NCBI GenBank assembly: GCA_963827685.1
Contig: CAWHBU010000004.1
Location: forward strand, 96,001-160,000
Reading direction: 5' to 3'
DNA: 64,000 bases
Source: an uncultured delta proteobacterium
GTDB taxonomy: Bacteria > Desulfobacterota > BSN033 > UBA1163
Of this stretch, positions 26,604 to 47,936 are shown piece by piece (position 1 is the first letter of the stretch; every line of letters starts with the position of its first letter). Below the pieces are notes generated by a model. That model made no database searches and had not been told where the DNA came from. It worked only from the letters and a program-made list of their open reading frames with translations. The translations under genes were made by a program, and so were the position numbers.

Positions 26604-26693
26604 AATTTGGAAATTAAGGGATTTAGGGATTGTTCAATTCACAATTCCTCAATTCGAGAATTTTGCGGTTTAATTTTGAAAGGATTCACTGTT

Positions 26694-29600
26694 ATGAGTC
26701 CAAATGAAAATCGGAAGATTGGTGCGGCGTTAGTCGTGGGGGGAGGAATCGCCGGGATTCAAGCCGCCCTTGATTTGGCTAATTCAGGAATCAAAGTTTA
26801 TCTCTTAGAACACTCCCCAGCCATTGGTGGGAAAATGGCTCAACTCGATAAAACCTTCCCCACCAATGACTGCGCTATGTGTATTGTTTCTCCAAAGTTG
26901 GTGGAGGCAGGAAGACATCTCAACATCGAAATCATTACCAACTCAGAACTTGTCTCTTTGGAAGGTGAGGCTGGGCATTTCAAAGCAAATATTCGGAAAC
27001 ATCCCCGCTACGTCGATATGAGTAAATGCACGAGTTGTAATGATTGTACAGAGGTCTGTCCTATTCTCCTGCCGAATGAATTTAATGAGGGATTGGATCA
27101 GAGAAAGGCTATTTATCGGCCTTATCCTCAGGCTGTTCCCAACACCTTTCTGGTCACTAAAAGAGGAACCAGTCCTTGCAAAAACACCTGCCCCGCCGAG
27201 ACGAGCGCACAAGGCTACATAGCTCTGATCCAGGCAGGCCGGTATAAAGAAGCCCTCGATGTGGTCAAAGAATATAATCCGTTTCCTGCCTCGGTAGGGC
27301 GTGTTTGTAATCACCCTTGTGAAGAGAAATGTAATCGAGGAAAGCTTGACAGCCCTGTTGCCATCTGCAGCCTGAAGCGTTTTGTAGCGGATTGGGTGTA
27401 TGAGCATCGTGATCAGTTAGAGAAGCAAATCACACCTCACGCTTCACGCCTGACGCTTGACGCTCCTAAAGAAGAACCAGTGCGGCCAAAAGCCAAAGTA
27501 GCAATTGTTGGGGCAGGCCCAGCAGGACTGAGCTGTGCCCATCAATTATCCCGCATGGGATATCAAACCACGATCTTTGAAGCCCTCCCCGTAGCAGGTG
27601 GAATGATGAGGGTAGGGATTCCCTCTTATCGTTTGCCCAGGGATGTGCTCCAGAGGGAAATTGATGAGATCTTGAATCACCCACTCGTTGCGTTGAAGCT
27701 CAATACCCCGATTCGAAATATCAACAGCCTCTTCGATGCTGGTTATTCTGCTGTCTTTTTGGCCATGGGTGCCCATGAGCCCCAGAAATTGGGCATTCCA
27801 GGGGAAGATGCCTTAGGGGTCCACTACGGGGTCCCTTTTCTCCAGGCTGTGAGCTTAGCTGAAAGACACGGAGTGATGGAGGGGTTTGAAGATCGTTTCC
27901 TGATCGCTTTTGGAATCCCCATCGCACCCAAAGTGGGAGAAAAGACCATCGTCATTGGAGGTGGAAATGTCGCCATTGATGCGGCCCGTACAGCCCTGAG
28001 GTTGGGCGCTAAAGGGGTCAGTATTCTCTATCGTCGATCTCGGGACGAGATGCCTGCCAATTCATGGGAGATTGAAGAGGCTGAGAGAGAAGGAATTGAA
28101 ATCCAAATCCTTACTTCGCCAGTCGAGGTGTTAGTGAAGGACGGCAGGGTTTCAGGTGTTCGATGTATCAAGATGGAGCTTGGTGAACCCGATGCCTCAG
28201 GACGAAGGAGGCCCATCCCCATCAAAGGCTCTGAGTTTATCGTGCCTGGAGATACCATGATTGCTTCGGTTGCACAGGCCCCGGAAATCTCCTTCCTCGA
28301 CGAATCCCATGGCCTTGAAGTGACCCCCAAGGGGACATTTGCCGTAGATCCACTTACCTTGACCACGAACCGACCGGGAGTCTTCGCGGGAGGCGATGTG
28401 GCAAGGGGTCCTTGGATACTGATCCAAGCCATTGCCGATGGCCGAAGAGGAGCGCTTTCCATTGATCGATATCTTAGAGGCGTTGATCTCCTCACCCCAA
28501 GAGAGCAGATTCCCCTTCCAGTAGTTGACCTATCTAAAGAAGAAATCAATCAGATGGTAGAAGAAGGGAAAGTAGACCTCACGCTAAGGACCGCAGTCCC
28601 CATGCTGCCAAAGGAAGACAGGATCAGAGATTTTCGAGAAGTGGAGTTGGTCCTCACCGAGGAACAGGCGAAGAAGGAAGCCGCGCGGTGTCTCGCCTGC
28701 GGCATCTGTTCAGAATGCCATCTCTGTGTCCAGGTTTGTAAAAGAGAAGCGATCGATCACCAACAGGCTGATCTGATGGAAGAATTAGGAGTAGGTTCTG
28801 TCATCCTCTCACCAGGTTATTCTCTCTACCGACCGGAACTTTCGCCCGAACTTGGCTATGGTCGTTATAACAATGTTGTGACGAGCATGGAATTTGAGAG
28901 GATGCTGAGCGCCTCGGGTCCCTGGGGAGGCCATGTCACTCGTCGATCGTCGGATCACCGAGAACCAAAGAAGATCGCATTTCTCCAATGCGTCGGATCG
29001 AGAGAGAAGGAGCGCGATTATTGCAGTTCGGTCTGCTGCATGTACGCTACTAAAGAGGCCATGCTCGCCATGGAGCATATCCCAGGAGTGGAGATTAAGA
29101 TCTTCCAAATGGATATGAGGGCATTTGGGAAAGGATTTGATGCTTACTTTGAAAGAGGGAAAGAAAAAGGAATTCAGTACATCCCTTGCCGCATTTCTGG
29201 ATTGGAAGAGGATCCTGAGACAAAGGACATTCTTATCCAATACGAAAGTTCCAATGGAAGTCATACCGTTAATAAAGAGGAGCGAGTTGACCTGGCGATA
29301 TTGAGCATTGGCATGGCAGCCCTTCCAGATGCTCAAATGTTGGCGAAGGCTTCAGGTATTGAACTCGATCCACATCAATTCTGCTTCACCCGAGACTTCC
29401 AACCCATTGAGACAAGCCGTTCCGGTGTTTACGCGTGCGGAGCTTTTACAGAGCCCAAAGATATTCCTGATAGTGTGATTCAAGCCAGTGGTGCAGCGGC
29501 CAAGGCCCTTTCTGTAATTGGAGAAGCCCGTGGGACGCTCGTTCGTAAGAAGGAATATCCTCCGGAAAGAGAGGTTCCCCCCGACGAAGAACCACGAATT

Positions 29601-31274
29601 GGAGCCTTTATTTGTAGTTGTGGAACAAATATCGCTGGAACTGTGGATGTCAAGGAAGTTGTTGAATTTACGAAATCCCTTCCGGGAGTTGTCCACGTTG
29701 AGAATACCATCTACACCTGTTCTGCAGACTCCTTAAAGTTGATCCAGGAGAGAGTGAAGGAACTCGGTCTGAATCGTGTTGTGGTGGCTTCCTGTACACC
29801 GAGGACGCATGAGCCGCTCTTTCGAGACACGATCCGTGAAGTCGGTCTTAATCCATACCTTTTTGAGATGGCAAATATCCGTGACCAATGCTCCTGGGTC
29901 CACATGAACCTTAAAGCAGAGGCGACTGAGAAGGCAAAGAACCTTGTCCGGATGGCCATTGCCTGCTCCAGGAATTTAGAGCCTCTCCATCAAGTCCCGC
30001 GTAGTTTAGTTCACAGCTGTCTCGTCGTGGGAGGTGGTTTGGCTGGGATGGTAGCAGCCCTGAGCATGGCAGAACAAGGGTATCAAGTCTTTCTAATTGA
30101 GAGAGAAAAGGAGTTGGGTGGAAGGCTTCGACAAATCTTTTACAGCGGAAATGGTGGAGACCCACAGACTTATTTGAGGGAATTGGTGAAGAGGGTCGAG
30201 AGCCATCCAAAGATTGAGGTTCTAAAAGGCTATCAGGTTGTGGAACATGAAGGAGCAGTAGGAAATTTTAAGACGAAGGTTGCCAACGGTTCCACTCAAA
30301 GAGTCTTAGACCATGGAACCACGATCATTGCCACGGGTGGAAAAGAGTATCGAGGCAAAGCTTATTCCTTAGGGGAAGATTCAAAGGTAATTACCCAGCA
30401 GGAATTTGAGAAACGTATCTCCCTTTCCGATCCCACGCTTTCAAAAGCCAAATCCATTGTGATGATTCAATGTGTAGGCCCGTGGGATGAAGATCCTGCT
30501 AAAATTTTCTACTGCAGCCGTATCTGTTGCAATGTGGCAGTTAAGAATGCAATCAGGATAAAGGAACTTTGTCCCGAAGCTTCAGTGACTATCCTTTATA
30601 AAGATATGAGAACCTATGGTTTCAAAGAAGCCTTCTATACTCAGGCGAGGGAGAAGGGGGTTCTATTCGTACGGTTTGATGAAAAGAAAAAACCCTCTGT
30701 TGCACTTGCCAATGGTCAGTTGTCTGTCCAAATAGAGGATCCTATGCTTCATCTTCCCCTCTCGCTCCATCCAGACCTTCTGGTTCTCTCTGAAGCAGTG
30801 GTTCCTAATGAAGGGAGCAAGGAACTGGCGAATCTCTTTAAGTTCCCCCTGACATTGGATGGGTTTTTCTTAGAGGCTCATGTCAAATTGAGGCCAGTCG
30901 ATTTTGCAACGGATGGTCTCTATCTCTGCGGAATGGCCCACTATCCGAAATCAATCAATGAAACCATTTCTCAAGCAGAAGCTGCCTCAGCCCGAGCTGC
31001 CACAATCCTTTCTCAAGAAGCACTCCAGGTCGGCGGAGTGGTAGCGGTCGTGGAGGGCGAGCGGTGTGCGGCCTGTTTGACCTGTGTGAGAGTGTGTCCC
31101 TATGAGGTACCGGTCATCAATGTGAAAGGCGAGGCAGAGATTGACCTGGCAAAGTGCAAAGGCTGTGGCAGTTGCGCGGCCGAGTGCCCGGCCAGGGCCA
31201 TTGAGCTGATGCACTTCAGGGATCTTCAATTGTGGGCCAAGTGCGAAGCCCTAATCATAGAGAGTAGAGCGTAG
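26694..31274 (+). CDS. hdrA: Large HdrA-like flavoprotein (HdrL type) with an inserted GltD-like NAD(P)H module
   Basis: GGGIAG..QLDKTFPTNDC; GAGPAG/GGGNVA module; CSSVCCMY; second HdrA module (ICSCGTNI, GGGLAG, EAHVKLRP); C-terminal ferredoxin. Confidence 0.9.
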   Translation: MSPNENRKIGAALVVGGGIAGIQAALDLANSGIKVYLLEHSPAIGGKMAQLDKTFPTNDCAMCIVSPKLVEAGRHLNIEIITNSELVSLEGEAGHFKANIRKHPRYVDMSKCTSCNDCTEVCPILLPNEFNEGLDQRKAIYRPYPQAVPNTFLVTKRGTSPCKNTCPAETSAQGYIALIQAGRYKEALDVVKEYNPFPASVGRVCNHPCEEKCNRGKLDSPVAICSLKRFVADWVYEHRDQLEKQITPHASRLTLDAPKEEPVRPKAKVAIVGAGPAGLSCAHQLSRMGYQTTIFEALPVAGGMMRVGIPSYRLPRDVLQREIDEILNHPLVALKLNTPIRNINSLFDAGYSAVFLAMGAHEPQKLGIPGEDALGVHYGVPFLQAVSLAERHGVMEGFEDRFLIAFGIPIAPKVGEKTIVIGGGNVAIDAARTALRLGAKGVSILYRRSRDEMPANSWEIEEAEREGIEIQILTSPVEVLVKDGRVSGVRCIKMELGEPDASGRRRPIPIKGSEFIVPGDTMIASVAQAPEISFLDESHGLEVTPKGTFAVDPLTLTTNRPGVFAGGDVARGPWILIQAIADGRRGALSIDRYLRGVDLLTPREQIPLPVVDLSKEEINQMVEEGKVDLTLRTAVPMLPKEDRIRDFREVELVLTEEQAKKEAARCLACGICSECHLCVQVCKREAIDHQQADLMEELGVGSVILSPGYSLYRPELSPELGYGRYNNVVTSMEFERMLSASGPWGGHVTRRSSDHREPKKIAFLQCVGSREKERDYCSSVCCMYATKEAMLAMEHIPGVEIKIFQMDMRAFGKGFDAYFERGKEKGIQYIPCRISGLEEDPETKDILIQYESSNGSHTVNKEERVDLAILSIGMAALPDAQMLAKASGIELDPHQFCFTRDFQPIETSRSGVYACGAFTEPKDIPDSVIQASGAAAKALSVIGEARGTLVRKKEYPPEREVPPDEEPRIGAFICSCGTNIAGTVDVKEVVEFTKSLPGVVHVENTIYTCSADSLKLIQERVKELGLNRVVVASCTPRTHEPLFRDTIREVGLNPYLFEMANIRDQCSWVHMNLKAEATEKAKNLVRMAIACSRNLEPLHQVPRSLVHSCLVVGGGLAGMVAALSMAEQGYQVFLIEREKELGGRLRQIFYSGNGGDPQTYLRELVKRVESHPKIEVLKGYQVVEHEGAVGNFKTKVANGSTQRVLDHGTTIIATGGKEYRGKAYSLGEDSKVITQQEFEKRISLSDPTLSKAKSIVMIQCVGPWDEDPAKIFYCSRICCNVAVKNAIRIKELCPEASVTILYKDMRTYGFKEAFYTQAREKGVLFVRFDEKKKPSVALANGQLSVQIEDPMLHLPLSLHPDLLVLSEAVVPNEGSKELANLFKFPLTLDGFFLEAHVKLRPVDFATDGLYLCGMAHYPKSINETISQAEAASARAATILSQEALQVGGVVAVVEGERCAACLTCVRVCPYEVPVINVKGEAEIDLAKCKGCGSCAAECPARAIELMHFRDLQLWAKCEALIIESRA

Positions 31275-34069: not shown

Positions 34070-35500
34070 ATGGAAATAATGTTGAATACCATTTTTGCTG
34101 AAACTATCCAAAAGGAGACCGGGGAGAATGTCTTTCTCTGCTACCAATGTCAGAAATGCTCCTCAGGTTGTCCGGTGGTAGAGCACTTCGATCTCGCTCC
34201 CAATCAGGTGATGCGGGCGATTCAGTTTGGCCAAAAGGAGATGGTCCTCCATTCGAAAACCATCTGGCTCTGCGCCATGTGTGAGACCTGTGCTACCCGT
34301 TGTCCTCACGACATTAACATCACAAAGATCATGGATGTTTTAAAAATCATGGCCAAGAACGAAAAAATAGAATCAAAGGTTCCTTCTGTTCCACTCTTCT
34401 ATCAGGCGGCCATGAGAGGAATCAAGTGGTTTGGAAGAATGTATGAAGCTGGGTTGATGGGAGAAATCTACTTCCGTCAGATGTTGGCAGGTCAGCTCAA
34501 CTATCAGCAGATTTGGAAAAATGATATGCCAATGGCTTTGAAGATGTTGAAAAATGGAAAGTTGAAGATCTTTCCCACTTTTGAGAGGCCAAAGGTCAAG
34601 GGAAAGACGGCTGAGAAAAAAGATGGCATCGCTTACTTTCCAGGCTGCAGTCTTCATGGTACTTCAAAGGAATACGATCTCTCCACCAAAGCCGTATTCC
34701 ATAAACTCGGAGTCTCCCTCCATGAACCAGAGGGATGGGGATGTTGCGGGACCACACCCACCCATTCCACAAACCATTTTCTTTCGACATTGCTTCCCAT
34801 GAAGAATATCGCTTTGATAAAAGAAGAAGGGTTGGATAATGTCACAACACCCTGTCCTTCCTGTTTTCTCAGGATGCGGGTTGCATTGAGAGAGACCGGC
34901 GAAGACAAGAATTTAAGAGAGAGGGTCAGCCGGGAGATTCCAAACCTTTCCTACAATGGGATGAAGGTTGAACATCTCTTGAACACGATTACAGAAAAAA
35001 TCGGTTACCAACGGGTGGCTTCAAAGGTCGTCCATCCCTTCAAAGGACTTAAAGTGGTTTGCTATTATGGATGCATCATCACCCGTCCTCCAAAAATCAC
35101 AGAAGTGAAAGATTACGAATATCCCACCCAGATGGATCGTTTAATGAAGGCCATTGGAATCACGCCCCTCGACTGGTCTTATAAAACTCGCTGTTGCGGA
35201 GTTTCTCTTGGAATTTCACAACTTCCGATTGCTCTGGAGTTAAGCAGGAAAATTCTTAAGAATGCAAAGGGTGTGGGAGCGGATGCGATCGTTGTGGCTT
35301 GTCCGCTTTGCCATGTCAACTTAGATGCCCGCCAGAAACAGATTGAAGAGGAATATAAAGAGACCTTTCATCTGCCCATTATCTATTTCACCCAGCTAAT
35401 GGGATTAGCCTTCGGCTTGAGGTCAGAAGAATTGGGTCTCGATAAACACTTCGTCGATCCCATCCCCCTTTTAAAGAGGATAGCAGAGGTTTCACCTTAA
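34070..35500 (+). CDS. HdrC-HdrB fusion (2x4Fe-4S plus CCG domains)
   Basis: CYQCQKCSSGCP, CAMCETCATRCP; YFPGC, CCG, YYGC, CCG, ACPLC. Confidence 0.9.
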   Translation: MEIMLNTIFAETIQKETGENVFLCYQCQKCSSGCPVVEHFDLAPNQVMRAIQFGQKEMVLHSKTIWLCAMCETCATRCPHDINITKIMDVLKIMAKNEKIESKVPSVPLFYQAAMRGIKWFGRMYEAGLMGEIYFRQMLAGQLNYQQIWKNDMPMALKMLKNGKLKIFPTFERPKVKGKTAEKKDGIAYFPGCSLHGTSKEYDLSTKAVFHKLGVSLHEPEGWGCCGTTPTHSTNHFLSTLLPMKNIALIKEEGLDNVTTPCPSCFLRMRVALRETGEDKNLRERVSREIPNLSYNGMKVEHLLNTITEKIGYQRVASKVVHPFKGLKVVCYYGCIITRPPKITEVKDYEYPTQMDRLMKAIGITPLDWSYKTRCCGVSLGISQLPIALELSRKILKNAKGVGADAIVVACPLCHVNLDARQKQIEEEYKETFHLPIIYFTQLMGLAFGLRSEELGLDKHFVDPIPLLKRIAEVSP

Positions 35501-35573
35501 AGAGCTCCTTCCAAATTGTAGGTCATTAAATTAAGAGATAAGAATAGAATCTTATCAGGTTGATTTGGGTTGC

Positions 35574-37169
35574 CTATTGGTAGTGGGGAGTTAGTATATT
35601 TGCATCTAAATAGTTTTCTATTATTTCTTTAGCCTCACTAATCCTTTCTTGTGGTATGAGGACGGAGATCTCAATATAAGGGCCGAAAAAATAGAGCAGA
35701 GCCCGGTGATAATAACCTCTCAGGTAGCAAGGAAGACCTTTCTGTTCAAAAAGGCTCTTGACAAGCCCAGCCATTGGAACATCGTGCAACTCGGCGACTT
35801 TTACAAGGTCATTTCCCTTCCTTCTCAGACGAACATCTCCTATAAGGTCCAGTAGTATTGCGACAGCTGTGATTAAAACAGTGCCCCCCATAATGAAAAA
35901 CAAAAATCGAGAGGCAATTTTCGGTATGAAAACAATAAAAGCTAAGTAAAGAGCTCCAACAGGAATGATGGATTCAAGGCTTTTGTCAATATAGCTTTCT
36001 TCATTTTTCCCTGGAGGAGATAGAATTGAAGCGTTCTTGTTTTTCAAAAAAGTGACCATCTCTTTGGGATCGTAAAAGAATGAAACGAAAAGGTAGTAAA
36101 GGAAAATGATAGTAATAGCATAAGCCACATAATACCAAATACCTCCGCCAACAAGAGCTTCGGATAATTTTTGAGAAACTTGATAACCCATCATAGGCGT
36201 AAATGCTAAGATAGTTGTTAGTAGTCCAATCAGCCATTCTCCCCCAGAAGCAGGTATTATCCCTGCAGATGTAAGTTTTAACGGGATATAGGCTTCCGTA
36301 CCATCACTAAATCTGACCGGTATTTTTCTTTTAGTTCTTTCCATGGACACAATGACTGTGACTATGATAATGATCATTGAGACATATAGTAGAAATGATA
36401 CGAGAGAGACAAAATGTTGTTGAAATAAAGAATATATTTGCGGGATGTAAGATAGAATCCCCCGGGCGAATCCTATCAATATCAAAATACTTATGCCGTG
36501 ACCTATTCCTTTTCTCGTAATCAGTTCCGCTATCCATATCGTCAGGAAGGTGCCGGCTGTAAGAGTTAAAGCCGAGATCAGCCGGGAAACCAACCCTGGG
36601 TTTCTTATAATCTTTTCCCCAACTGGTCCAACCATATTTTCAAGCCCTTGAGCCAAAGCGTAACCGTGCAAGAGAGCAAGCAGAAATGTTGCAAAAAGCG
36701 CTATCTCTTTAATCCTTATCCTTCCTACATATCCCTCTCCCCGCCAAGATTTTAGCGGTGGGATAAACAACGATAAGATTTCAACTATTATATAAGCATT
36801 TATATAAGGCATAATACCAAGGGCTAAAATAGAGAATCTTTCAAGAGCTGGTTCATAGCCGAAAAATCTTAGAAAACGATTAAACTGCTCATCGCTAAAA
36901 AACCCACTAAGAGACTGAAGATCGATTCCTGGAACTGGTATTAATACCAAAACTCTATAGAGGAGAATAAAACCGATTGTATAAAGGACTCTTTTGTGAA
37001 GATCAGTGAGAGCGGTTTTTGGAGAAGTCTTCTGGGTATCTCCCTTTTCAGTGACTTCTTCCGAGAGCAGGCTTCCACAATCCGAGCAGTGGGTAATTCC
37101 TTCTCGAAACTCTGCAGGGCGTCCGGTTTTCTTTTTGTGTGGGCATTCAGGATTCAAACAAAAAGCCAT
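35574..37169 (-). CDS. SecY paralogue with N-terminal Zn-ribbon and C-terminal DUF2007-like domain
   Basis: SILALGIMPYI, LTAGTF..WIAELITRKGIGHGIS, IPLKLTSAGIIP, GGTVLI; N-terminal C..PEC...CSDCG; C-terminal AGLVKSLFEQKGLPC. Confidence 0.8.
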   Translation of the reverse strand: MAFCLNPECPHKKKTGRPAEFREGITHCSDCGSLLSEEVTEKGDTQKTSPKTALTDLHKRVLYTIGFILLYRVLVLIPVPGIDLQSLSGFFSDEQFNRFLRFFGYEPALERFSILALGIMPYINAYIIVEILSLFIPPLKSWRGEGYVGRIRIKEIALFATFLLALLHGYALAQGLENMVGPVGEKIIRNPGLVSRLISALTLTAGTFLTIWIAELITRKGIGHGISILILIGFARGILSYIPQIYSLFQQHFVSLVSFLLYVSMIIIIVTVIVSMERTKRKIPVRFSDGTEAYIPLKLTSAGIIPASGGEWLIGLLTTILAFTPMMGYQVSQKLSEALVGGGIWYYVAYAITIIFLYYLFVSFFYDPKEMVTFLKNKNASILSPPGKNEESYIDKSLESIIPVGALYLAFIVFIPKIASRFLFFIMGGTVLITAVAILLDLIGDVRLRRKGNDLVKVAELHDVPMAGLVKSLFEQKGLPCYLRGYYHRALLYFFGPYIEISVLIPQERISEAKEIIENYLDANILTPHYQ

Positions 37170-37190
37170 CGGTCGAACCTTTCGTTACGC

Positions 37191-38582
37191 TCATCGAATC
37201 TCTAATTTTTTTGCCTGTTTTGGAAGCTTCGATTCTATTTCTTTCATCAGTCTCTGGGCTTCCTTGTGACCTTGTCTTATTTTTAAGACGTTGTTTAGAA
37301 GATCTTTTATCTGGGTATAGTCAAGGAACTCTTGATCCTTTAAATAAAGGGATTTCGCCAACATGAAAGTATAATCAGGATTTTCAGGAGAAAGATAGCA
37401 GGCATTAGCAAATTCAGATTGAGCCTGTAGAATGTTCCCGCGTTGGTAAAACGCTAAGCCCCTTTCATAATGCTTGCTGGCCTGGGGTGGATCCTCAGAC
37501 TTAAGGAATTCTATCGATGATAAAACAGTTAAAATATTGCTCTCATCAAAGTATTTCTTTAATAACAGATACCCACCACCTGTGAATTGATTTTCCTTCC
37601 CTTTGTAGAGAGAAAACCCTCCTGAAAATAGGATGTCTGTTTGTCGCCTTTCCCAAAATCCCCTATAGCCATTCATATGGATTTCTTTTAAATCGATCGG
37701 TTCCCCTATTTTCCGTTGGGTAGAGCGAATAAATGCAACACCTGGATTCCAATTATTTGTTAGCATATATTTTTCGAGATCAAATCTAGAAACATGGCCC
37801 AGCCGTTTTCTAAATTCTTCATCATCACCGTAAGGCAATTCATTTGTTAAATTGACAATTCCTCTGATTTCTTTTCCCTTGTTTCGGAACACAACTCTCC
37901 ATTCCCGGTCCTTTCGTTCGGTTTTATATAAACCTCCTATGATAAATTCCTTTGGTAACAACAGGGAGACATTGAGAATTTCAACTTTCAGATATTTCTC
38001 CGGTGTTTCGGAAAGATTAGATTTCTTCAGGATAGTGACCCGAGGTTTGGCCACATAAAGAGGAATGTTATATTTTAGTTTCATAAATATTGAAAAGAAG
38101 ATCGAATAGAACGAAAACAAAAAAATAATAACGACTAAAAGCGCATGCCAGCTTATGAACTTAAAATGGTAAGATTTGCCAAAGAGAGCCTTCACTCTCT
38201 TTCTTGTGAAAAAAAACAATGTAAGAACGACAAAAAAGAACTGTATGTATATACCATATTGAAATAAGCTAAATATCCCCAAATACAAATATTGAGTAAA
38301 AATAACGACAAGAAATGTCAACATGGCTGCTATGGCGGCATATCTGGCCCAAAATCGTCTCCGAAGCAAGCCATATCCGACGATAATGTTTATTGGAGTC
38401 ATATATAGAGAGATGCCTGTAAGAATAAAGAAATGATTTAGGAAGATTACATTCGGTATTTTGGGGATCGTCAGGATTTTAGGAAGGATATTAACGACAA
38501 TGTCAAACACAGCATAAATAAGTATGAGGATAGAGTAAACCCATAATACAAGAATTTCTTTTCTGCTATTTGTGGGTTCCAT
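37191..38582 (-). CDS. Membrane protein with C-terminal TPR-like repeats
   Basis: About 5 N-terminal TMs; HYERGLAFYQRG..A...F..A..LSPENP. Confidence 0.65.
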   Translation of the reverse strand: MEPTNSRKEILVLWVYSILILIYAVFDIVVNILPKILTIPKIPNVIFLNHFFILTGISLYMTPINIIVGYGLLRRRFWARYAAIAAMLTFLVVIFTQYLYLGIFSLFQYGIYIQFFFVVLTLFFFTRKRVKALFGKSYHFKFISWHALLVVIIFLFSFYSIFFSIFMKLKYNIPLYVAKPRVTILKKSNLSETPEKYLKVEILNVSLLLPKEFIIGGLYKTERKDREWRVVFRNKGKEIRGIVNLTNELPYGDDEEFRKRLGHVSRFDLEKYMLTNNWNPGVAFIRSTQRKIGEPIDLKEIHMNGYRGFWERRQTDILFSGGFSLYKGKENQFTGGGYLLLKKYFDESNILTVLSSIEFLKSEDPPQASKHYERGLAFYQRGNILQAQSEFANACYLSPENPDYTFMLAKSLYLKDQEFLDYTQIKDLLNNVLKIRQGHKEAQRLMKEIESKLPKQAKKLEIR

Positions 38583-38731
38583 TTACCTTCTCCATTTTTT
38601 ACGAATGTACCCCGGATGTGATGCAATATATCAAAAACAAAGTCGGTATGCAATTGAGATGCTTATTAATGGAGTGGGCTTTGGGGAGAATGGAAAGTTT
38701 AATCGGTCCTTATATCCTTAACCTTGTATTT

Positions 38732-39925
38732 TTAATTTTTGCGCATCATGTAGCCCACCGCTTTCTCTAATCCATCCAAGGTCAGTTCAAACATGGGAAA
38801 GATCTCCCGGATATGATGGATGGAGCGTGTGTAGGGCCATTCTTCGGCGAGTTTTGGATTGATCCAAGCAGCATGAGGGAAGGTTTTGGCAATAAACTTC
38901 AGCCTCTCATAACTCGGTCTTCCGGATCTCTCTTCAATATGGATGGAACCATCCGTAGACATCAGTTCATAAGGAGCCATGCTCGCATCCCCTACGATGA
39001 CAAACCTTGTTTCCGGGTCAAGGCGGACCAGTTCGTCTACTGAGAATGGTTTGGTATGCCTGGGAGGGTCTTCCCAGAGATAATCGTAGATGGTGTTGTG
39101 AAAATAAAATGTTTTGAGGTCTTTGAACTGAGACCGTGCATAATTAAAGAGGGTTTGGACCAACTCGATATAAGGATCCATGGACCATCCGCCATTGTCA
39201 ATGGCAAGGATTACCTTTAACCGGTCCTTCAGACTCCGGTCAAATACAATCTCAATTTCTCCCGCATTCCTCATGGTCTCATAAATGGTCTTATCAATAT
39301 TCACCCTATCTTTAGGACCGAAAGGAACCATATTCCTCAGTCTTTTGAGGGCCTCTCCCATTTGGGATGCGGTCATTGGTCCTTCCTGGGAGTAGTCACG
39401 ATACCTTCGATCCATGGCCACTTTGACGGCTGACTTATTTCGAGAAACACCACCCACTCTCATTCCACCCGGATGATAACCGGAATGTCCCACAGGAGAA
39501 GTCCCTTTTGTCCCAATCCACTTGTTCCCTCCGTGGTGTGCCCCGGTCTGTTCTTTTAATCGATCAAGAAAGTATTTAAGCAGCTCATCCGGACTCAGCT
39601 TTAACAAATCTTCTTCATTCACCCCAAGGGCTTCTGCTAAGCCTTTAGGATCTTTCAACCACTCATCAAGCAGGCCACGGGCGATCTCGGACAATTCAAT
39701 TTCTTCTGGTTCCTTTAACTCAGCGCCCTCAAACTGATGGGCAAAAACCTGGTCATAAAGATCAAAATATTTTTCACTCTTCACCAGAATCGTGCGGGCC
39801 CCTGTGTAAAAATCATCCAGAGAATTGATCATCCCCATGCTCAAGGCTTTCTGGAGCCTGAGAAAAGAAGTAGGGGTGACTGGAATACCCGCTTTTTTTA
39901 GTAAATAAAAGAAATCGACAAACAT
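38732..39925 (-). CDS. VWA-domain CoxE-like protein
   Basis: GGNKWIGTKGTSP.G, IDNGGWSM, VGDASMAPYEL, WINP. Confidence 0.85.
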   Translation of the reverse strand: MFVDFFYLLKKAGIPVTPTSFLRLQKALSMGMINSLDDFYTGARTILVKSEKYFDLYDQVFAHQFEGAELKEPEEIELSEIARGLLDEWLKDPKGLAEALGVNEEDLLKLSPDELLKYFLDRLKEQTGAHHGGNKWIGTKGTSPVGHSGYHPGGMRVGGVSRNKSAVKVAMDRRYRDYSQEGPMTASQMGEALKRLRNMVPFGPKDRVNIDKTIYETMRNAGEIEIVFDRSLKDRLKVILAIDNGGWSMDPYIELVQTLFNYARSQFKDLKTFYFHNTIYDYLWEDPPRHTKPFSVDELVRLDPETRFVIVGDASMAPYELMSTDGSIHIEERSGRPSYERLKFIAKTFPHAAWINPKLAEEWPYTRSIHHIREIFPMFELTLDGLEKAVGYMMRKN

Positions 39926-39952
39926 AAACGAACTCTGTCACATTCCATAAAA

Positions 39953-39992
39953 TCCCCCCTCGCCCCCCTTTCGTAAAGGGGGGTTGGGGGGA
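39953..39992. repeat. GC-rich REP-like palindrome
   Basis: TCCCCCCTCGCCCCCCTTTCGTAAAGGGGGGTTGGGGGGA; a related copy lies at about 18197-18232. Confidence 0.6.
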
Positions 39993-40018
39993 TTAGTAAT
40001 CTTACACCCTGAATCGTG

Positions 40019-40852
40019 CTACCGCATTCTGGGCAACCACATAATCTGGCTCTTTTTAAACAGAATGCCCAAGAAAGGAACCTCTCCTTTGATCAGATCT
40101 TTCACCCGGAAGTCGGGATCTGACTTTAAGGCTCTAATCCAATTAATCAGCTCCCGGGTAGCAGGTTTCTTCTCAATACCTCTGATTTCTCTGAGTCGGT
40201 AAAAGGTTTTAATGGCGCTATCGAGTAATTCCTTGTCAATATCAGAAAAATGGACATGAACAATCTTTCTCATCATGTCGGGCTCTGGAAAGGCAATGTG
40301 GTGGAAATTACAGCGACCTAAGAATGGATCGGAGAGGTCTTTTTTGGCATTGGAGGTAATAATGATGACTGGCCGTTGTTTCGCCTTGATAGTTTTATCG
40401 ATCTCGATAATATCGAATTCCATCTGGTCCAGCACATCCAGCATATCATCCTGAAAATCAGTATCTGCCTTATCAATCTCGTCAATCAGGAGAACCACTC
40501 TCTGATCAGATACAAAAGACTGTCCGATCTTGCCCATCCGAATGTACTCTTCGATATTGCTCACATCTCTTTTCGAATCACCAAAACGGCTATCGTTCAA
40601 ACGCGTGAGGGTATCGTACTGGTAAAGGGCGTCAATCAGCTTCATGCTCGATTTGACATTGAGAACGATCAGTTTCATACCAGAAGCTTCGGCAATGGCG
40701 TGAGCCAGCATGGTCTTTCCTGTTCCAGGTTCTCCCTTGAGCAGAAGAGGCATTTCCAGCGCCATCGAAATATTGACAATGCTTGCCAGCTCATCATCCA
40801 GCACGTATTTGGAAGCACCCGTAAATTCCTTTTTTTGAGTCTCTTTGTGCAT
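40019..40852 (-). CDS. MoxR-family AAA+ ATPase
   Basis: GEPGTGKT, LLIDEIDKAD, ITSN, KKPATRELINW; probable frameshift near the C-terminus. Confidence 0.9.
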   Translation of the reverse strand: MHKETQKKEFTGASKYVLDDELASIVNISMALEMPLLLKGEPGTGKTMLAHAIAEASGMKLIVLNVKSSMKLIDALYQYDTLTRLNDSRFGDSKRDVSNIEEYIRMGKIGQSFVSDQRVVLLIDEIDKADTDFQDDMLDVLDQMEFDIIEIDKTIKAKQRPVIIITSNAKKDLSDPFLGRCNFHHIAFPEPDMMRKIVHVHFSDIDKELLDSAIKTFYRLREIRGIEKKPATRELINWIRALKSDPDFRVKDLIKGEVPFLGILFKKSQIMWLPRMR

Positions 40853-46108: not shown

Positions 46109-47554
46109 GAGTCAATACCTTTTTTAGTTGAAATTCGATAATGGCTCCTTGTTGAGTTCATCAGGCCGCCTCCGCCACCTTCGGCATTTCTTGTTTTCCT
46201 CCCTGTCTCGCAATCTCCCTCTGGATAGAAATTCTTAACTGTGGAAGATATCTGTAACCCTTGACCTTTCTAAGTCTCGGCTCAATATCTAAAAGGGCTG
46301 CGGCTAACCACCGATGCTTCTGATCACTATTCTTCCAATAATCGACCTTGTCGGTCTTCTGACCAATGAGCGCCATCAAGGATTCGATACAGTTCGTGGT
46401 TTTAAAGCTGATCCCACATTCTCTAAGGAGTCCCAAACGATGCAGCGTCAAGGTCTCTTCACATCCTTCGTCTAAACTATTGACCGCCGATCGGTTGAGC
46501 AGCTGCAGTTCCTTACGAATCTTTAACAGTCTCTCCTTCGCCCTTTCATAGATGGGCTCCTCATAGGCCTCTTGAAGCTTCCGCCTCATCGAAGCCTGCA
46601 TCGCCTTCGGAAGATAACTCACCACATTCTCCCGCTTGTGCCACTGGCATCGCTGCACCAAGGCTTTATTCCCAAAAACTTCATACACCGCTTTCCTCAA
46701 CCCTTTCGATCCATCAATCACACATAAAAACCCTTCTTCCATCTCTAGCCCACGCTCCAGCAACCCCTGGAGCATTTCCCGGCCAACCCGCTCATTCTCC
46801 GTCCCCGCCTGAATAAATCCTAAAAGAATCTTCTCCCCTTTGACGGTAATCCCCAATACCAAAATCATCTCATCTGCACCAAAACTCTTCCCATCCAGAA
46901 TCAATGCTACAAAATCATACCCCTCCAATCGACGCTCGCAAAGCTCCTTGAGCGCTTTTGCGCTGACTCGAATGTATCGCCTCGAAATCGTCGAACCACT
47001 CAAACCAAAAGCCTCCGGCACCGCTTCCGCACACTCCTCATAGTTCCGACAACTTAATCCATGGAGAACTCGTCTCAATACCCCTTCATCTGCCCCACGA
47101 GGCTCCTGTAACCGCTCATAACTCTTTAACCGTACCTCTTTCCCCCCACGCCTATCTCTCACCCTTGGCACCAAGATCGGAAGCTTCTGATCCGATAGAT
47201 AAACTGACCCCCCTTGGCTCCCCCAACGATCATACCCAGGAACCCCCCGGCGCTTATATCTTTCCCCAGCTAAACTTCTGACTTCTTCCTCCAAAACCTC
47301 CTTCACATGCCACAACCCTACGGGGATCAATGCCTGGATTAACTCTATCTTCATATCCACATCCATCTGCTTCAATCCCCTATCACAAATCTCTTTCACC
47401 CGCGCCCGCCTAACCTTGACACCTCTACCAATCCGTAATATCTTCTCCATCACTGGCTCCTTTCTTGGTGGTTTTTCTTTTTCTTCCCAAAGTAAGAGAT
47501 TACCACCATTTTAGGAGCCACTTCTCAAATTTCAACTAAATTTAGCACACCCTC
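46109..47554 (-). mobile_element. Complete IS256-family element with 8-bp target duplication
   Basis: ATAAGTGC at 46101-46108 and 47555-47562; inverted ends share TTTAGTTGAAATT. Confidence 0.9.
46161..47453 (-). CDS. IS256 (Mutator) family DDE transposase
   Basis: VPRVRDR, LDGK, DGSKGL, QRCQWHK, TTNCIES. Confidence 0.93.
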   Translation of the reverse strand: MMEKILRIGRGVKVRRARVKEICDRGLKQMDVDMKIELIQALIPVGLWHVKEVLEEEVRSLAGERYKRRGVPGYDRWGSQGGSVYLSDQKLPILVPRVRDRRGGKEVRLKSYERLQEPRGADEGVLRRVLHGLSCRNYEECAEAVPEAFGLSGSTISRRYIRVSAKALKELCERRLEGYDFVALILDGKSFGADEMILVLGITVKGEKILLGFIQAGTENERVGREMLQGLLERGLEMEEGFLCVIDGSKGLRKAVYEVFGNKALVQRCQWHKRENVVSYLPKAMQASMRRKLQEAYEEPIYERAKERLLKIRKELQLLNRSAVNSLDEGCEETLTLHRLGLLRECGISFKTTNCIESLMALIGQKTDKVDYWKNSDQKHRWLAAALLDIEPRLRKVKGYRYLPQLRISIQREIARQGGKQEMPKVAEAA

Positions 47555-47847
47555 ATAAGTGCCCTTTTTCATATATTAAATAGTGGGTGTAAAGGAAGTT
47601 TATGATTTTAAAAATGGGTCAGTAAGTATATTCAAAAGAAAATAAGCCTGCTGAGCTCCTGAGGAAGAGTCTCCCTATTCTTTCTTCCACTATTCGTTAA
47701 AACCTGGACAAAATGTCAAAGAATGAAAAAAATCGGTACTGTTCCGCTAAAATGGAGAAAAGTAAGGTAAGAGGGGGATCATTATAACTTAATAAATTCA
47801 TTAAGTTTAGGAAGCATTTATACCTGCGTGTTCTCAATGGTTTTCAA

Positions 47848-47864
47848 TTGGTATGTTTTTTGCT
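47848..47864 (+). promoter_or_regulatory. Putative sigma-54 promoter
   Basis: TTGGTATGTTTTTTGCT fits GG-N10-GC, upstream of the kinase gene. Confidence 0.55.
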
Positions 47865-47936
47865 CAATTTTCACAATAGATGGATTAAGTAAGCGAAATA
47901 AAATTTATTTTTTCCAGACTCGAACGTAATTATAAG

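What the first reader, a model, noticed from the sequence alone, without database searches (positions are those of the whole stretch)
35574..38582. Orphan SecY paralogue embedded in a Zn-ribbon/DUF2007 protein, with a membrane TPR partner
Seen: a 531-aa ORF with SecY signature motifs along its length, far from any ribosomal operon or secA2/asp cluster, in an AT-rich two-gene unit. The N-terminus is C..PEC-x-EFREGITHCSDCG and the C-terminus is DUF2007-like. I recall these two parts occurring together as one small protein, so SecY appears inserted between them. The GIRPG cytoplasmic loop carrying E. coli R357 (SecA/ribosome contact) reads SPPG here. Inference: a repurposed, possibly metal- or signal-gated channel or membrane sensor rather than a SecA-driven translocon.
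Basis: partly seen in the sequence, partly recalled or inferred. Interest (0 to 1): 0.82.

Follow-up and report, generated by a model that had tools for sequence, protein, structure and literature searches.

The report
Capped SecY paralogue, undescribed family
This gene encodes a second, divergent copy of the protein-export channel SecY that carries its own zinc-ribbon and DUF2007 domains on the cytoplasmic side and lacks the usual docking sites for the ribosome and SecA. It belongs to a widespread family that I could not find described in the literature.

Summary
Window 35574-37169 (-) encodes a 531-aa protein with three parts: an N-terminal 4-Cys zinc ribbon, a complete SecY core (Pfam E 3.6e-56; AlphaFold pLDDT 85.9; Foldseek TM 0.82-0.83 to solved SecY), and a C-terminal DUF2007-like domain. 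The genome also has a canonical secY in the ribosomal operon and one copy each of secA, secE and secG.

The fusion is not an assembly artefact. All 120 best database relatives have E <= 2.6e-100, and 76 of them carry both Pfam domains. The C-terminal domain alone finds 514 clusters (50% identity). These include forms without the zinc ribbon and 790-880-aa forms with a SecD P1-head domain in front of the SecY core.

On the SecY core alone the family separates from 17 canonical SecYs (support 0.984). Family-wide, the C4 loop is shortened and lacks the R255/R256 pair, R357 is never Arg, and one pore-ring position (E. coli I278) is mostly polar.

The TPR membrane protein is a neighbour only within the window's genus, and each gene occurs without the other.

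My best reading is an auxiliary polypeptide channel that is fed or gated by its own cytoplasmic cap rather than by SecA or the ribosome. This function is inferred, not shown. Five literature searches aimed at this architecture or at SecY paralogues found no description of it.

The parts
35574..37169 (-). Gene for the 531-aa capped SecY paralogue (stop codon at 35574-35576).
   Evidence: ORF. Pfam SecY E 3.6e-56. The 120 best relatives listed have E <= 2.6e-100. AlphaFold pLDDT 85.9, pTM 0.80.
37062..37169 (-). N-terminal 4-Cys zinc ribbon, residues 1-36 (C4, C9, C28, C31). Cytoplasmic by SecY topology.
   Evidence: All four Cys present in 73 of 80 aligned relatives. pLDDT 80-89 over residues 1-40. 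Pfam zinc-ribbon models are not significant (E 0.04). NCBIfam 4-Cys prefix domain is weak (16.9 bits).
37005..37061 (-). Flexible linker, residues 37-55, between the zinc ribbon and TM1.
   Evidence: pLDDT below 50 for residues 41-52. Poorly conserved in alignments A1 and A2.
35820..37004 (-). SecY channel core, residues 56-450 (ten membrane helices).
   Evidence: NCBIfam SecY match over residues 59-444. Foldseek top hits are SecY chains with TM 0.82-0.83 on the target. phmmer to E. coli SecY, E 3.8e-54.
36285..36314 (-). Shortened C4 loop (residues 286-295). The positions aligned to E. coli R255/R256 are T291/E292, and the loop is 9 residues shorter than in the genome's canonical SecY.
   Evidence: Alignments. 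The segment from window residue 285 up to residue 296 is 11 residues long in 78 of 80 relatives and 20 in 17 of 17 canonical SecYs.
36009..36020 (-). C5 loop tip SPPG (residues 384-387) in place of GIRPG. E. coli R357 aligns to P385.
   Evidence: At this column 61 of 80 relatives have Pro and none has Arg. In the wider set 0 of 56 have Arg, against 17 of 17 canonical SecYs.
35577..35819 (-). C-terminal cytoplasmic cap, residues 451-531. A DUF2007-like alpha/beta domain that starts four residues after the TM10 helix, with the family motif around Y487-H488-R489 ... P497.
   Evidence: DUF2007 27.7 bits when scanned alone. Helix 429-450 is followed by a strand at 455-461. R489 and P497 are invariant in 80 of 80 and 56 of 56. 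The domain alone finds 514 clusters at 50% identity.
37170..37190 (-). 21-nt spacer between the TPR-protein gene and the SecY paralogue gene, with an AAAGG stretch that ends 9 nt before the ATG. Probably co-transcribed.
   Evidence: Sequence. No terminator-like site on the minus strand in 35300-39000.
37191..38582 (-). Gene for a 463-aa membrane protein: about five N-terminal membrane helices, a beta-rich domain and three TPR-like repeats. The soluble part is probably periplasmic. A genus-level neighbour, not an obligate partner.
   Evidence: Hydropathy and positive-inside count. AlphaFold pLDDT 75.7. Foldseek: designed TPR at TM 0.88, PsbP/Apa-like folds at TM about 0.5. 115 homologues, and the organism labels listed are Thermodesulfobacteriota or Desulfobacterales. 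Occurrence.

Best explanation
The ORF is a member of a family of SecY paralogues that I found no description of in the literature. I call it 'capped SecY'.

It has a complete ten-helix SecY channel core. The last membrane helix runs almost directly into a cytoplasmic DUF2007-like domain with an invariant Arg and Pro motif. In this branch the N-terminus also carries a 4-Cys zinc ribbon on a flexible tether.

It coexists with the housekeeping SecY, SecE, SecG and SecA.

The cytoplasmic loops that dock the ribosome, FtsY and SecA are shortened or recoded throughout the family. One or two pore-ring positions carry the kind of substitution that loosens E. coli SecY.

I therefore propose that it is an auxiliary polypeptide-conducting channel for a dedicated, still unknown set of substrates. 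In this reading, access and gating are provided by its own cap (and zinc ribbon) rather than by SecA or the ribosome.

Shown here: the domain architecture, the SecY fold, the coexistence with canonical Sec genes, the family-wide loop and pore changes, and the existence of SecD-head-fused relatives.

Inferred: that the cap sits over or beside the cytoplasmic funnel, that polypeptide is what passes through, and that SecA and the ribosome are not used.

The upstream TPR membrane protein is probably co-transcribed here but is a lineage-specific accessory at most.
For: - SecY domain and fold.
- Canonical secY in the rpsE-rplO-secY-adk context, plus a single secA, secE and secG.
- In all four other genomes tested, a capped copy sits beside a canonical copy. 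G002, G006 and G011 score 176-206 against 405-409 bits. G722, from another phylum sample, scores 54 against 373 bits.
- Real, conserved fusion: the 120 best relatives are 329-567 aa, and 76 of 120 carry PF09413 + PF00344 precomputed. There are 22 invariant columns across 80 sequences.
- On SecY-core columns only (405 columns, cap excluded), the 41 family members separate from 17 canonical SecYs with SH-like support 0.984.
- Docking elements. Passages of PMC3575545 call R255/R256 (C4) and R357 (C5) universal binding sites for the ribosome, FtsY and SecA. Here these positions are T291/E292 within a loop shortened by 9 residues, and P385. At the R357 column, Arg is present in 0 of 80 and 0 of 56 family members, against 17 of 17 canonical SecYs. 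The C4 segment is 1-16 residues in 55 of 56 family members against 20 in 17 of 17 canonical SecYs.
- Pore ring. The position of I278 is S308 here. In the family it is E19, S16, D13, Y7, N5, T4 and others out of 80. The position of I408 is T434. Passages of PMC13537251 list I278S, I278A/Y and I408G/A among variants with 2- to 8-fold higher translocation activity. The same paper calls the pore ring a proof-reading device.
- Polypeptide handling. 5 of 10 longer or divergent relatives that I scanned have a SecDF P1-head domain in front of the SecY core. P0292 also matches the SecD model over residues 80-370. A review (PMC6028853, passage read) describes the P1 domain as proposed to bind the emerging chain.
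- The cap starts 4 residues after the TM10 helix, so it must sit at the cytoplasmic mouth region.
Against: - No experiment, no substrate and no expression data.
- I could not see model coordinates, so the position of the cap and zinc ribbon relative to the funnel is unknown.
- No conserved operon partner points to a substrate or a motor.
- The plug region is poorly conserved and modelled with low confidence (residues 95-105, pLDDT below 50).
- The polar or acidic pore position could equally suit a non-protein solute.
- Loss of the C4/C5 arginines does not prove that SecA or the ribosome cannot bind in another way. A zinc ribbon could even be an alternative ribosome contact.
- The canonical SecY set used for comparison (17 sequences) is narrow: 15 come from the window's own phylum, plus L008 and the metagenome locus L049.
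- One copy in the genus (G012) is interrupted by stop codons, so the gene is dispensable in at least some strains.
Confidence: 0.45

Rival explanations
1. It is an alternative core subunit of the ordinary translocon. It assembles with the single SecE and SecG and is still driven by SecA and/or ribosomes. It would be used under particular conditions or for a subset of ordinary Sec substrates, with the cap and zinc ribbon acting only as regulatory add-ons.
For: - The genome has only one secE, one secG and one secA and no second set, so any partner subunits would have to be shared.
- The SecY scaffold motifs are kept. Columns invariant in both the family and the canonical copy include G221, G223, G225, E277, K298, A302, G303, P306 and D441.
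- Four of six pore-ring positions stay hydrophobic.
Against: - The residues named as universal docking sites for the ribosome, FtsY and SecA (PMC3575545 passages) are missing in every family member examined: 0 of 80 and 0 of 56 have Arg at the R357 column, and the C4 loop is shortened.
- The C-terminal tail is replaced by a folded domain.
- The SecY equivalog model scores below its cut-off (212.4 against 253.6).
Confidence: 0.2
2. It is a repurposed SecY scaffold that no longer moves proteins. It would be a ligand- or metal-gated channel for ions or small solutes, or a membrane-anchored signalling protein whose DUF2007 and zinc-ribbon module senses a cytoplasmic signal.
For: - DUF2007 carries the Pfam description 'putative prokaryotic signal transducing protein'.
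- The position of I278 is polar or acidic in most of the 80 close relatives (E19, D13, S16).
- Docking loops are lost.
- Conserved His and Cys in the cap and in the C3 loop (H224 in 78 of 80, H462 in 72 of 80, C481 in 73 of 80, H488 in 75 of 80) could form a metal or ligand site.
Against: - Relatives fuse the same core and cap to a SecD P1-head domain, a domain proposed to hold emerging polypeptide.
- One distant member lies directly downstream of a signal peptidase I gene (L044).
- H224 and C481 are not kept in the wider family (N in 33 of 56 and non-Cys in 33 of 56), so a universal metal site there is unlikely.
- The Pfam name is a structural-genomics label, not a tested function.
Confidence: 0.2
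3. It is a decaying or selfish duplicate with no function of its own, or an assembly or binning artefact.
For: - The G012 copy carries in-frame stops.
- Patchy occurrence: 5 of 15 genomes of the genus, 0 of 26 other relatives.
- AT-rich compared with its surroundings.
- The genome bin has 7.98% estimated contamination.
Against: - 22 invariant and about 60 nearly invariant columns across 80 relatives that go down to 37% identity.
- 514 clusters share the cap.
- The architecture recurs on independent contigs from many samples and in G722, on a contig of 3.73 Mb, beside a canonical secY.
- Flanking genes are about 94% identical to those of sister genomes.
Confidence: 0.03

Closest known systems
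Canonical bacterial SecY (core of SecYEG; TIGR00967, PF00344)
   Same: Same ten-helix fold and the same order of conserved motifs. About 32-34% identity to the genome's own SecY. Four of six pore-ring positions are hydrophobic. N- and C-termini are cytoplasmic by homology.
   Different: - Scores below the equivalog cut-off.
- Not in the ribosomal operon.
- The C4 loop is 9 residues shorter and lacks the Arg pair. R357 is replaced.
- The I278 position is polar.
- Extra zinc ribbon and DUF2007-like cap.
- Patchy, accessory distribution.
SecY2 of the accessory Sec system (Gram-positive cocci, with SecA2 and Asp proteins)
   Same: A second, divergent SecY that coexists with the housekeeping one and is presumed to serve special substrates.
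   Different: - SecY2 models score 66.3 and 57.2 bits against cut-offs of 353 and 249.6.
- Only one SecA in the genome.
- No asp or glycosyltransferase genes among the neighbours examined.
- SecY2 has no zinc ribbon or DUF2007 cap (recalled, not tested).
- Different phyla.
Small zinc-ribbon + DUF2007 proteins (PF09413), for example the 158-aa protein on L003 in the same genome
   Same: Same two modules in the same order. Two collinear BLASTP pieces match the N- and C-termini of the fusion. DUF2007 scores 44.2 bits and Zn_Ribbon_1 has E 0.0016.
   Different: The modules are contiguous and soluble there. They are separated by about 400 residues of SecY here. The cap of the SecY family has its own invariant motif (R489, P497) that the four free-standing DUF2007 proteins I read do not show. 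Function unknown in both.
E. coli prlA-type / 'super-active' SecY pore-ring mutants (I278S, I408 substitutions)
   Same: This protein naturally has Ser at the I278 position and Thr at the I408 position. Such substitutions raise translocation activity in a cell-free screen (PMC13537251 passages).
   Different: Those are single laboratory mutations in an otherwise canonical, SecA/ribosome-dependent SecY. Here the changes are natural, variable between relatives, and combined with loss of the docking loops.
SecDF (P1 head domain)
   Same: Some family members (790-881 aa) carry a SecD-like membrane helix, P1 domain and membrane helix in front of the SecY core.
   Different: The window's protein has no such domain. 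In the fused relatives, no match to the rest of the SecDF membrane domain was reported. The TIGR01129 match covers model positions 33-259 of 397, so proton-driven movement is doubtful.

Membership tests
SecY superfamily (PF00344 fold) | Pfam SecY domain above the gathering score | tested here: met
   191.2 bits against 32.2, residues 113-442 matched to model positions 1-305 of 306.
SecY superfamily (PF00344 fold) | Ten-helix SecY/Sec61 fold | tested here: met
   AlphaFold model pLDDT 85.9. The 12 best Foldseek hits are bacterial SecY chains, with TM up to 0.83 on the target and E down to 1.9e-18.
Housekeeping SecY (NCBIfam TIGR00967 equivalog) | Score at or above the equivalog cut-off | tested here: not met
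   212.4 bits against a cut-off of 253.6. On the Pfam SecY model the genome's other copy scores 408 bits against 193 for this one.
Housekeeping SecY (NCBIfam TIGR00967 equivalog) | Position in the ribosomal protein operon next to rplO and adk | tested here: not met
   Neighbours here are an HdrD-like protein, MTHFR, a TPR membrane protein and an AAA ATPase. The canonical copy on contig 1 has the ribosomal context.
Housekeeping SecY (NCBIfam TIGR00967 equivalog) | Basic docking residues R255/R256 (C4) and R357 (C5) for the ribosome, FtsY and SecA | tested here: not met
   These positions are T291/E292 in a shortened loop, and P385. Arg at the R357 column in 0 of 80 and 0 of 56 family members, against 17 of 17 canonical SecYs. 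The role of these residues comes from passages of PMC3575545.
Housekeeping SecY (NCBIfam TIGR00967 equivalog) | Six hydrophobic pore-ring residues | tested here: not met
   Four of six are Ile (I119, I123, I226, I230). The I278 position is Ser and the I408 position is Thr. The identity of I86, I191, I278 and I408 as pore-ring residues comes from PMC13537251 passages. I82 and I187 are recalled.
SecY2 / accessory Sec system | Match to SecY2 models above their cut-offs | tested here: not met
   NF009082 scores 66.3 bits (cut-off 353). TIGR02920 scores 57.2 bits (cut-off 249.6).
SecY2 / accessory Sec system | A dedicated second SecA (SecA2) in the genome | tested here: not met
   One SecA_DEAD match in the whole genome. 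The genome is 94.5% complete.
DUF2007 (PF09413) | HMM score above the gathering score | tested here: inconclusive
   23.7 bits in the whole protein (below 25.7). 27.7 bits for the last 92 residues alone and 27.5 bits in the six-frame search. 76 of the 120 best relatives carry the precomputed domain.
DUF2007 (PF09413) | Small alpha/beta fold of the family | tested here: inconclusive
   The model has strand-helix-strand-short helix-strand-helix over residues 455-520 with pLDDT mostly 84-96. The domain was not compared on its own with a solved DUF2007 structure. A sequence search of the PDB gave only a chance-level hit (E 0.2).
Zinc ribbon | Two Cys pairs in the right spacing, conserved | tested here: met
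   C4, C9, C28 and C31. All four are present in 73 of 80 relatives.
Zinc ribbon | Zinc actually bound | not testable with these tools
   Needs metal analysis of purified protein. Pfam zinc-ribbon models are not significant on the 40-residue piece (E 0.04).
TPR protein (the upstream gene) | TPR repeats | tested here: inconclusive
   Pfam TPR_9, TPR_11 and TPR_2 are all below cut-off (18.9, 14.7 and 14.2 bits). The C-terminal helices superpose on a designed 3-TPR protein (1na3_A, TM 0.88 on the target, rmsd 2.1 over 89 columns).

The most novel reading that the evidence does not exclude
Capped SecY is a self-contained translocon. It needs neither SecA nor a docked ribosome. Its pore is naturally in a loosened, prlA-like state and is kept shut or opened by its own DUF2007 cap and zinc ribbon. 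In some lineages a built-in SecD-like head holds the emerging chain.

By the logic of domain fusion, the many free-standing zinc-ribbon/DUF2007 proteins of unknown function would then be cytoplasmic factors that dock on ordinary SecY. That would give this DUF a function.
Probability: 0.25. Interest if true: 0.88.

Novelty: new variant of a known kind. Interest (0 to 1): 0.72.

Why it matters
SecY is one of the best-studied membrane proteins. The only established bacterial paralogue I can recall, and the only one my searches turned up, is SecY2 of the accessory Sec system.

Here is a family present in several phyla, with 514 clusters (50% identity) sharing the cap. It has dropped the contacts to SecA, FtsY and the ribosome, added its own cytoplasmic domains, and sometimes added a SecD head.

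If it moves proteins, it offers a natural experiment on how a SecY channel can be gated and driven without the canonical motors. It also offers a first functional lead for DUF2007.

If it does not move proteins, it would be an example of the SecY fold put to another use. I know of no bacterial example.

Either way, current annotation as 'preprotein translocase subunit SecY' or 'DUF2007 domain-containing protein' hides it.

Tried and rejected
- Complex prediction: the zinc ribbon (residues 1-40) against the rest of the protein (53-531) gave 'no answer' (score 0.00). I do not count this for or against docking.
- The look-up of sequencing runs: no RNA holder listed.
I used FastTree instead.
- In one search one canonical row (canon_L076) had a branch of 4.6. 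My script had probably picked a wrong ORF, so I dropped it.
- The first protein-atlas search (whole protein) listed four SecY-carrying clusters (three of them also carrying DUF2007), commonest phylum Myxococcota or Acidobacteriota. I treat these as leads only. The second call, on the cap alone with SecY clusters left out, gave no usable hit.
- PDB sequence search with the cap gave only a chance-level hit to LptE (E 0.2).
- PADLOC had no hit for the fusion, the TPR protein or the 397-aa neighbour.
- NCBIfam has no dedicated model for the family.

Search for conserved neighbours. Beyond the TPR gene in close relatives and a divergent HAD hydrolase gene in one sub-group (6 loci, two of which may be the same contig), the neighbours are unrelated housekeeping genes: UvrB, YicC, molybdopterin oxidoreductase, ferredoxin, an IS200-type transposase, MauJ-like and DUF2442. 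I rejected an operon-level partner.

Readings I rejected:
- SecY2 membership.
- 'The genome's only secY'.
- Misassembly of the fusion.
- The TPR protein as an obligate partner. The two genes occur separately. Their identities to the window's copies are incongruent: L027 has partner 79% and fusion 63.5%, while L025 has partner 50.8% and fusion 71.8%.

Literature searches. SecY + DUF2007 found 0 papers. DUF2007 alone found 6 papers (5 listed), none with SecY in the title or abstract start shown. I did not open them. SecY paralogue and SecY2 terms, SecY/SecD fusion terms and SecY with Myxococcota, Nitrospirota or zinc ribbon gave no description of this architecture in the listings. Subscription-only papers and supplements were not searchable.

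Full report
WHAT IS THERE

Window 35574-37169 (minus strand) is a 531-aa ORF. Pfam gives SecY at E 3.6e-56 over residues 113-442 and DUF2007 at 23.7 bits over residues 456-519, just under the 25.7 cut-off. Scanned alone, the last 92 residues reach 27.7 bits. NCBIfam's SecY equivalog model scores 212.4 bits, under its 253.6 cut-off, and the two SecY2 models score 66.3 and 57.2 bits.

The first 36 residues hold four Cys in a ribbon-like spacing. The upstream gene (37191-38582, minus strand, 463 aa) ends 21 nt before the SecY ORF, with an AAAGG stretch ahead of the ATG and no terminator-like site between them. The two genes are the most AT-rich part of the window, at GC 0.402 and 0.364 against a mean of 0.458.

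THE REST OF THE SEC MACHINERY

The genome (5.23 Mb, 14 contigs, 94.5% complete, 7.98% contamination) has a second SecY match of 408 bits on contig 1. That gene is 442 aa, lies between ribosomal protein genes and adenylate kinase, and has the canonical GIRPG loop. There is one secA, one secE and one secG. So this is an extra SecY with no second motor and no second set of small subunits.

The 120 best relatives in the 5.8-billion-protein collection all have E <= 2.6e-100 and are 329-567 aa long. 76 of the 120 carry PF09413 + PF00344 precomputed. The few source names are Nitrospirota, Thermodesulfovibrionales, Thermodesulfobacteriota and Deltaproteobacteria. An alignment of 80 of them, down to 37% identity, has 22 invariant columns.

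The C-terminal 92 residues alone, searched against 1.84 billion cluster representatives, found 514 proteins at E <= 0.001 and 68 at E <= 1e-10. Of the 150 listed, 59 are 400-600 aa, 16 are over 600 aa, 48 are 130-399 aa and 27 are under 130 aa. Many of the short ones are likely fragments.

Of 10 longer or divergent ones that I scanned, all 10 have a SecY domain and 5 also have a SecDF P1-head domain in front of it. P0292 matches the SecD model over residues 80-370. By my Cys-pattern regex, 23 of the 75 proteins of 400 aa or more have the N-terminal ribbon.

The family therefore has three architectures:
- zinc ribbon, SecY core, cap;
- SecY core, cap;
- membrane helix, SecD-like P1 domain, membrane helix, SecY core, cap.

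The cap is the constant feature. R489 and P497 are invariant in 80 of 80 and 56 of 56.

A FastTree tree used 405 SecY-core columns with the cap excluded. It covered 41 family members and 17 canonical SecYs: 15 from the window's phylum, one from the Aminicenantes genome of L008 and one from metagenome locus L049. I had dropped one row because of a wrong ORF. The family separates from the canonical set with SH-like support 0.984. Ribbon-bearing members occur in both major branches, so the ribbon is probably old and was lost repeatedly. The canonical sample is too narrow to say where in bacterial SecY history the family arose.

WHAT CHANGED IN THE CHANNEL

I mapped residues by hand from the phmmer alignment to E. 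coli SecY (5abb_A).

- Pore-ring positions I82, I86, I187 and I191 correspond to I119, I123, I226 and I230.
- I278 corresponds to S308 and I408 to T434.
- R255/R256 fall on T291/E292 in a loop that is 9 residues shorter.
- R357 falls on P385.

These changes hold across the family:

| Feature | 80 close relatives | 56 wider representatives | 17 canonical SecYs |
|---|---|---|---|
| R357 column | P61, K4, no Arg | Arg in 0 of 56 | Arg in 17 of 17 |
| C4 segment length | 11 residues in 78 of 80 | 1-16 residues in 55 of 56 | 20 residues in 17 of 17 |
| I278 column | E19, S16, D13, Y7, N5, T4, others | mostly S, A, T, V, G | Ile in 17 of 17 |

Passages of PMC3575545 state that R255/R256 and R357 are universal binding sites for the ribosome, FtsY and SecA, and that the triple charge-reversal mutant is defective in ribosome binding. 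Passages of PMC13537251 name I86, I191, I278 and I408 as pore-ring residues and list I278S and I408 substitutions among variants with 2- to 8-fold higher translocation. That I82 and I187 complete the ring is my recollection.

STRUCTURE

The AlphaFold model built on the 80-sequence alignment has pLDDT 85.9 and pTM 0.80. The ribbon (residues 1-40, pLDDT 80-89) is joined by a low-confidence linker (residues 41-52). The TM10 helix ends at residue 450, and the first strand of the cap starts at 455. Foldseek's best PDB hits are bacterial SecY chains, with TM up to 0.83 on the target.

SecY's termini are cytoplasmic (established topology). So both add-ons are cytoplasmic, and the cap is held close to the cytoplasmic end of TM10. 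I could not obtain coordinates, so the exact placement of the cap is not known.

THE TPR NEIGHBOUR

The upstream protein has about five membrane helices with positively charged loops at 70-76 and 125-147. This places the 297-residue soluble part outside the cytoplasm. Its model (pLDDT 75.7) shows a beta-rich domain with weak likeness to PsbP/Apa-type folds (TM about 0.5) and three TPR-like repeats (TM 0.88 to a designed TPR). Its 115 homologues carry only Thermodesulfobacteriota or Desulfobacterales names.

It precedes the fusion in the window, in L021 (where it is split into two ORFs), L025, L026, L027 and L031, and in L023, where the fusion is broken. All of these have fusion identity of about 61% or more. 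It does not precede the fusion in L029, L030, L032, L033, L034, L036, L038, L039 or L044.

Within the genus, 8 of 15 genomes have the TPR gene (G000, G002, G004, G005, G006, G009, G010, G012). 5 of 15 have the fusion (G000, G002, G006, G011, G012). In G009 the TPR gene is followed by the next conserved gene with no match to the fusion in between.

Flanking genes (AAA ATPase, 397-aa protein) are about 94% identical between genomes, while the TPR protein is 50-79% and the fusion 61-72% identical. The two sets of identities are incongruent. I conclude that it is a co-transcribed, lineage-specific neighbour and not a defining partner.

DISTRIBUTION

- The fusion is in 5 of 15 genomes of the genus and in 0 of 26 other relatives.
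- In a sample of 401 genomes of the phylum (254 genera), the cap query hit only the window's genus.
- In 301 genomes of the phylum of L008's genome, it hit one genome, G722. G722 has a canonical SecY (373 bits) and a capped one (54 bits, DUF2007 23.3 bits) on a 3.73-Mb contig.
- ESM Atlas clusters with SecY + DUF2007 list Myxococcota and Acidobacteriota as the commonest labels (a lead only).

So the family is sparse within each phylum sampled but spread over several phyla. In each of the five genomes checked (G000, G002, G006, G011, G722) it sits beside a canonical secY.

MECHANISM

The scaffold of a protein channel is kept. The known docking sites for all three cytoplasmic partners are gone. 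The C-terminal tail is replaced by a folded, strongly conserved domain. The pore ring carries prlA-like loosening substitutions. Some relatives add the periplasmic domain that, in SecDF, is proposed to grip the emerging chain (PMC6028853 passage).

The simplest reading is an auxiliary polypeptide channel whose access and gating are handled by its own cap. I put this at about 0.45. I give about 0.2 each to a shared-subunit, SecA/ribosome-driven alternative core and to a non-protein channel or sensor. A functionless duplicate or artefact gets 0.03, and the remainder is left for readings I have not thought of.

The free zinc-ribbon/DUF2007 protein in the same genome is one hint, and a DUF2007 gene directly after a capped SecY in L053 is another. 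Together they suggest that free DUF2007 proteins may act on translocons. This is untested.

NOVELTY

Five full-text searches aimed at this architecture or at SecY paralogues found no description of it. I judged them from listings and abstract starts only. Three further searches checked residue roles and were not aimed at novelty. Source annotations call these proteins SecY, SecD, 'hypothetical' or 'DUF2007 domain-containing'. Subscription journals and supplements were not searchable.

LIMITS

- No expression data (reported only as tried).
- No coordinates.
- The complex prediction gave no verdict.
- The canonical comparison set is small and phylogenetically narrow.
- Residue mapping to E. coli was done by hand from one alignment.

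Noticed in passing
Proteins P0292, P0294, P0298, P0316, P0320: Relatives of 565-881 aa combine a SecD-like P1-head domain with a SecY core and the same C-terminal cap. JGI names one of them SecD. This is a second architecture that I could not find described in the literature searched.
   Followed up: partly
G012:C5, locus L023 8705-10317: The genus-mate G012 has the capped SecY gene interrupted: the genome search reports one TAG and one TGA inside the matches, and it appears as two ORFs of 409 and 114 aa. This is either a pseudogene or a sequencing error.
   Followed up: no
Window 37191-40852 compared with L024/L025 and L023: The AAA ATPase and the 397-aa gene are 92-96% identical between genus-mates. 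The adjacent TPR gene is only 50-52% identical, and 79% in another lineage. This is a sharp mosaic boundary that suggests allele replacement by recombination.
   Followed up: partly
L044 491-3163: In a distant family member (32% identity) a signal peptidase I gene with an N-terminal extension lies directly upstream on the same strand. This is the only neighbour found with a link to protein export.
   Followed up: no
L053 15-1397: A free-standing DUF2007 protein with a C-terminal Cys-rich/hydrophobic part is encoded 80 nt downstream of a capped SecY gene.
   Followed up: no
Window 38732-39925 (-): The 397-aa protein next to the AAA ATPase has no Pfam, NCBIfam or PADLOC hit although it is highly conserved in the genus. 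The ATPase is MadB-like but far below that model's cut-off (121 bits against 475).
   Followed up: no
Window 26607-31274 (+) and around 47500: There is a 1555-aa ORF upstream of the region, and a second AT-rich patch (GC 0.379 in 47501-49000). I examined neither.
   Followed up: no
G002:C17, loci L021/L069/L070: The TPR gene in G002 is split into two ORFs (275 and 149 aa) with a TAA in between, next to an intact capped SecY gene.
   Followed up: no
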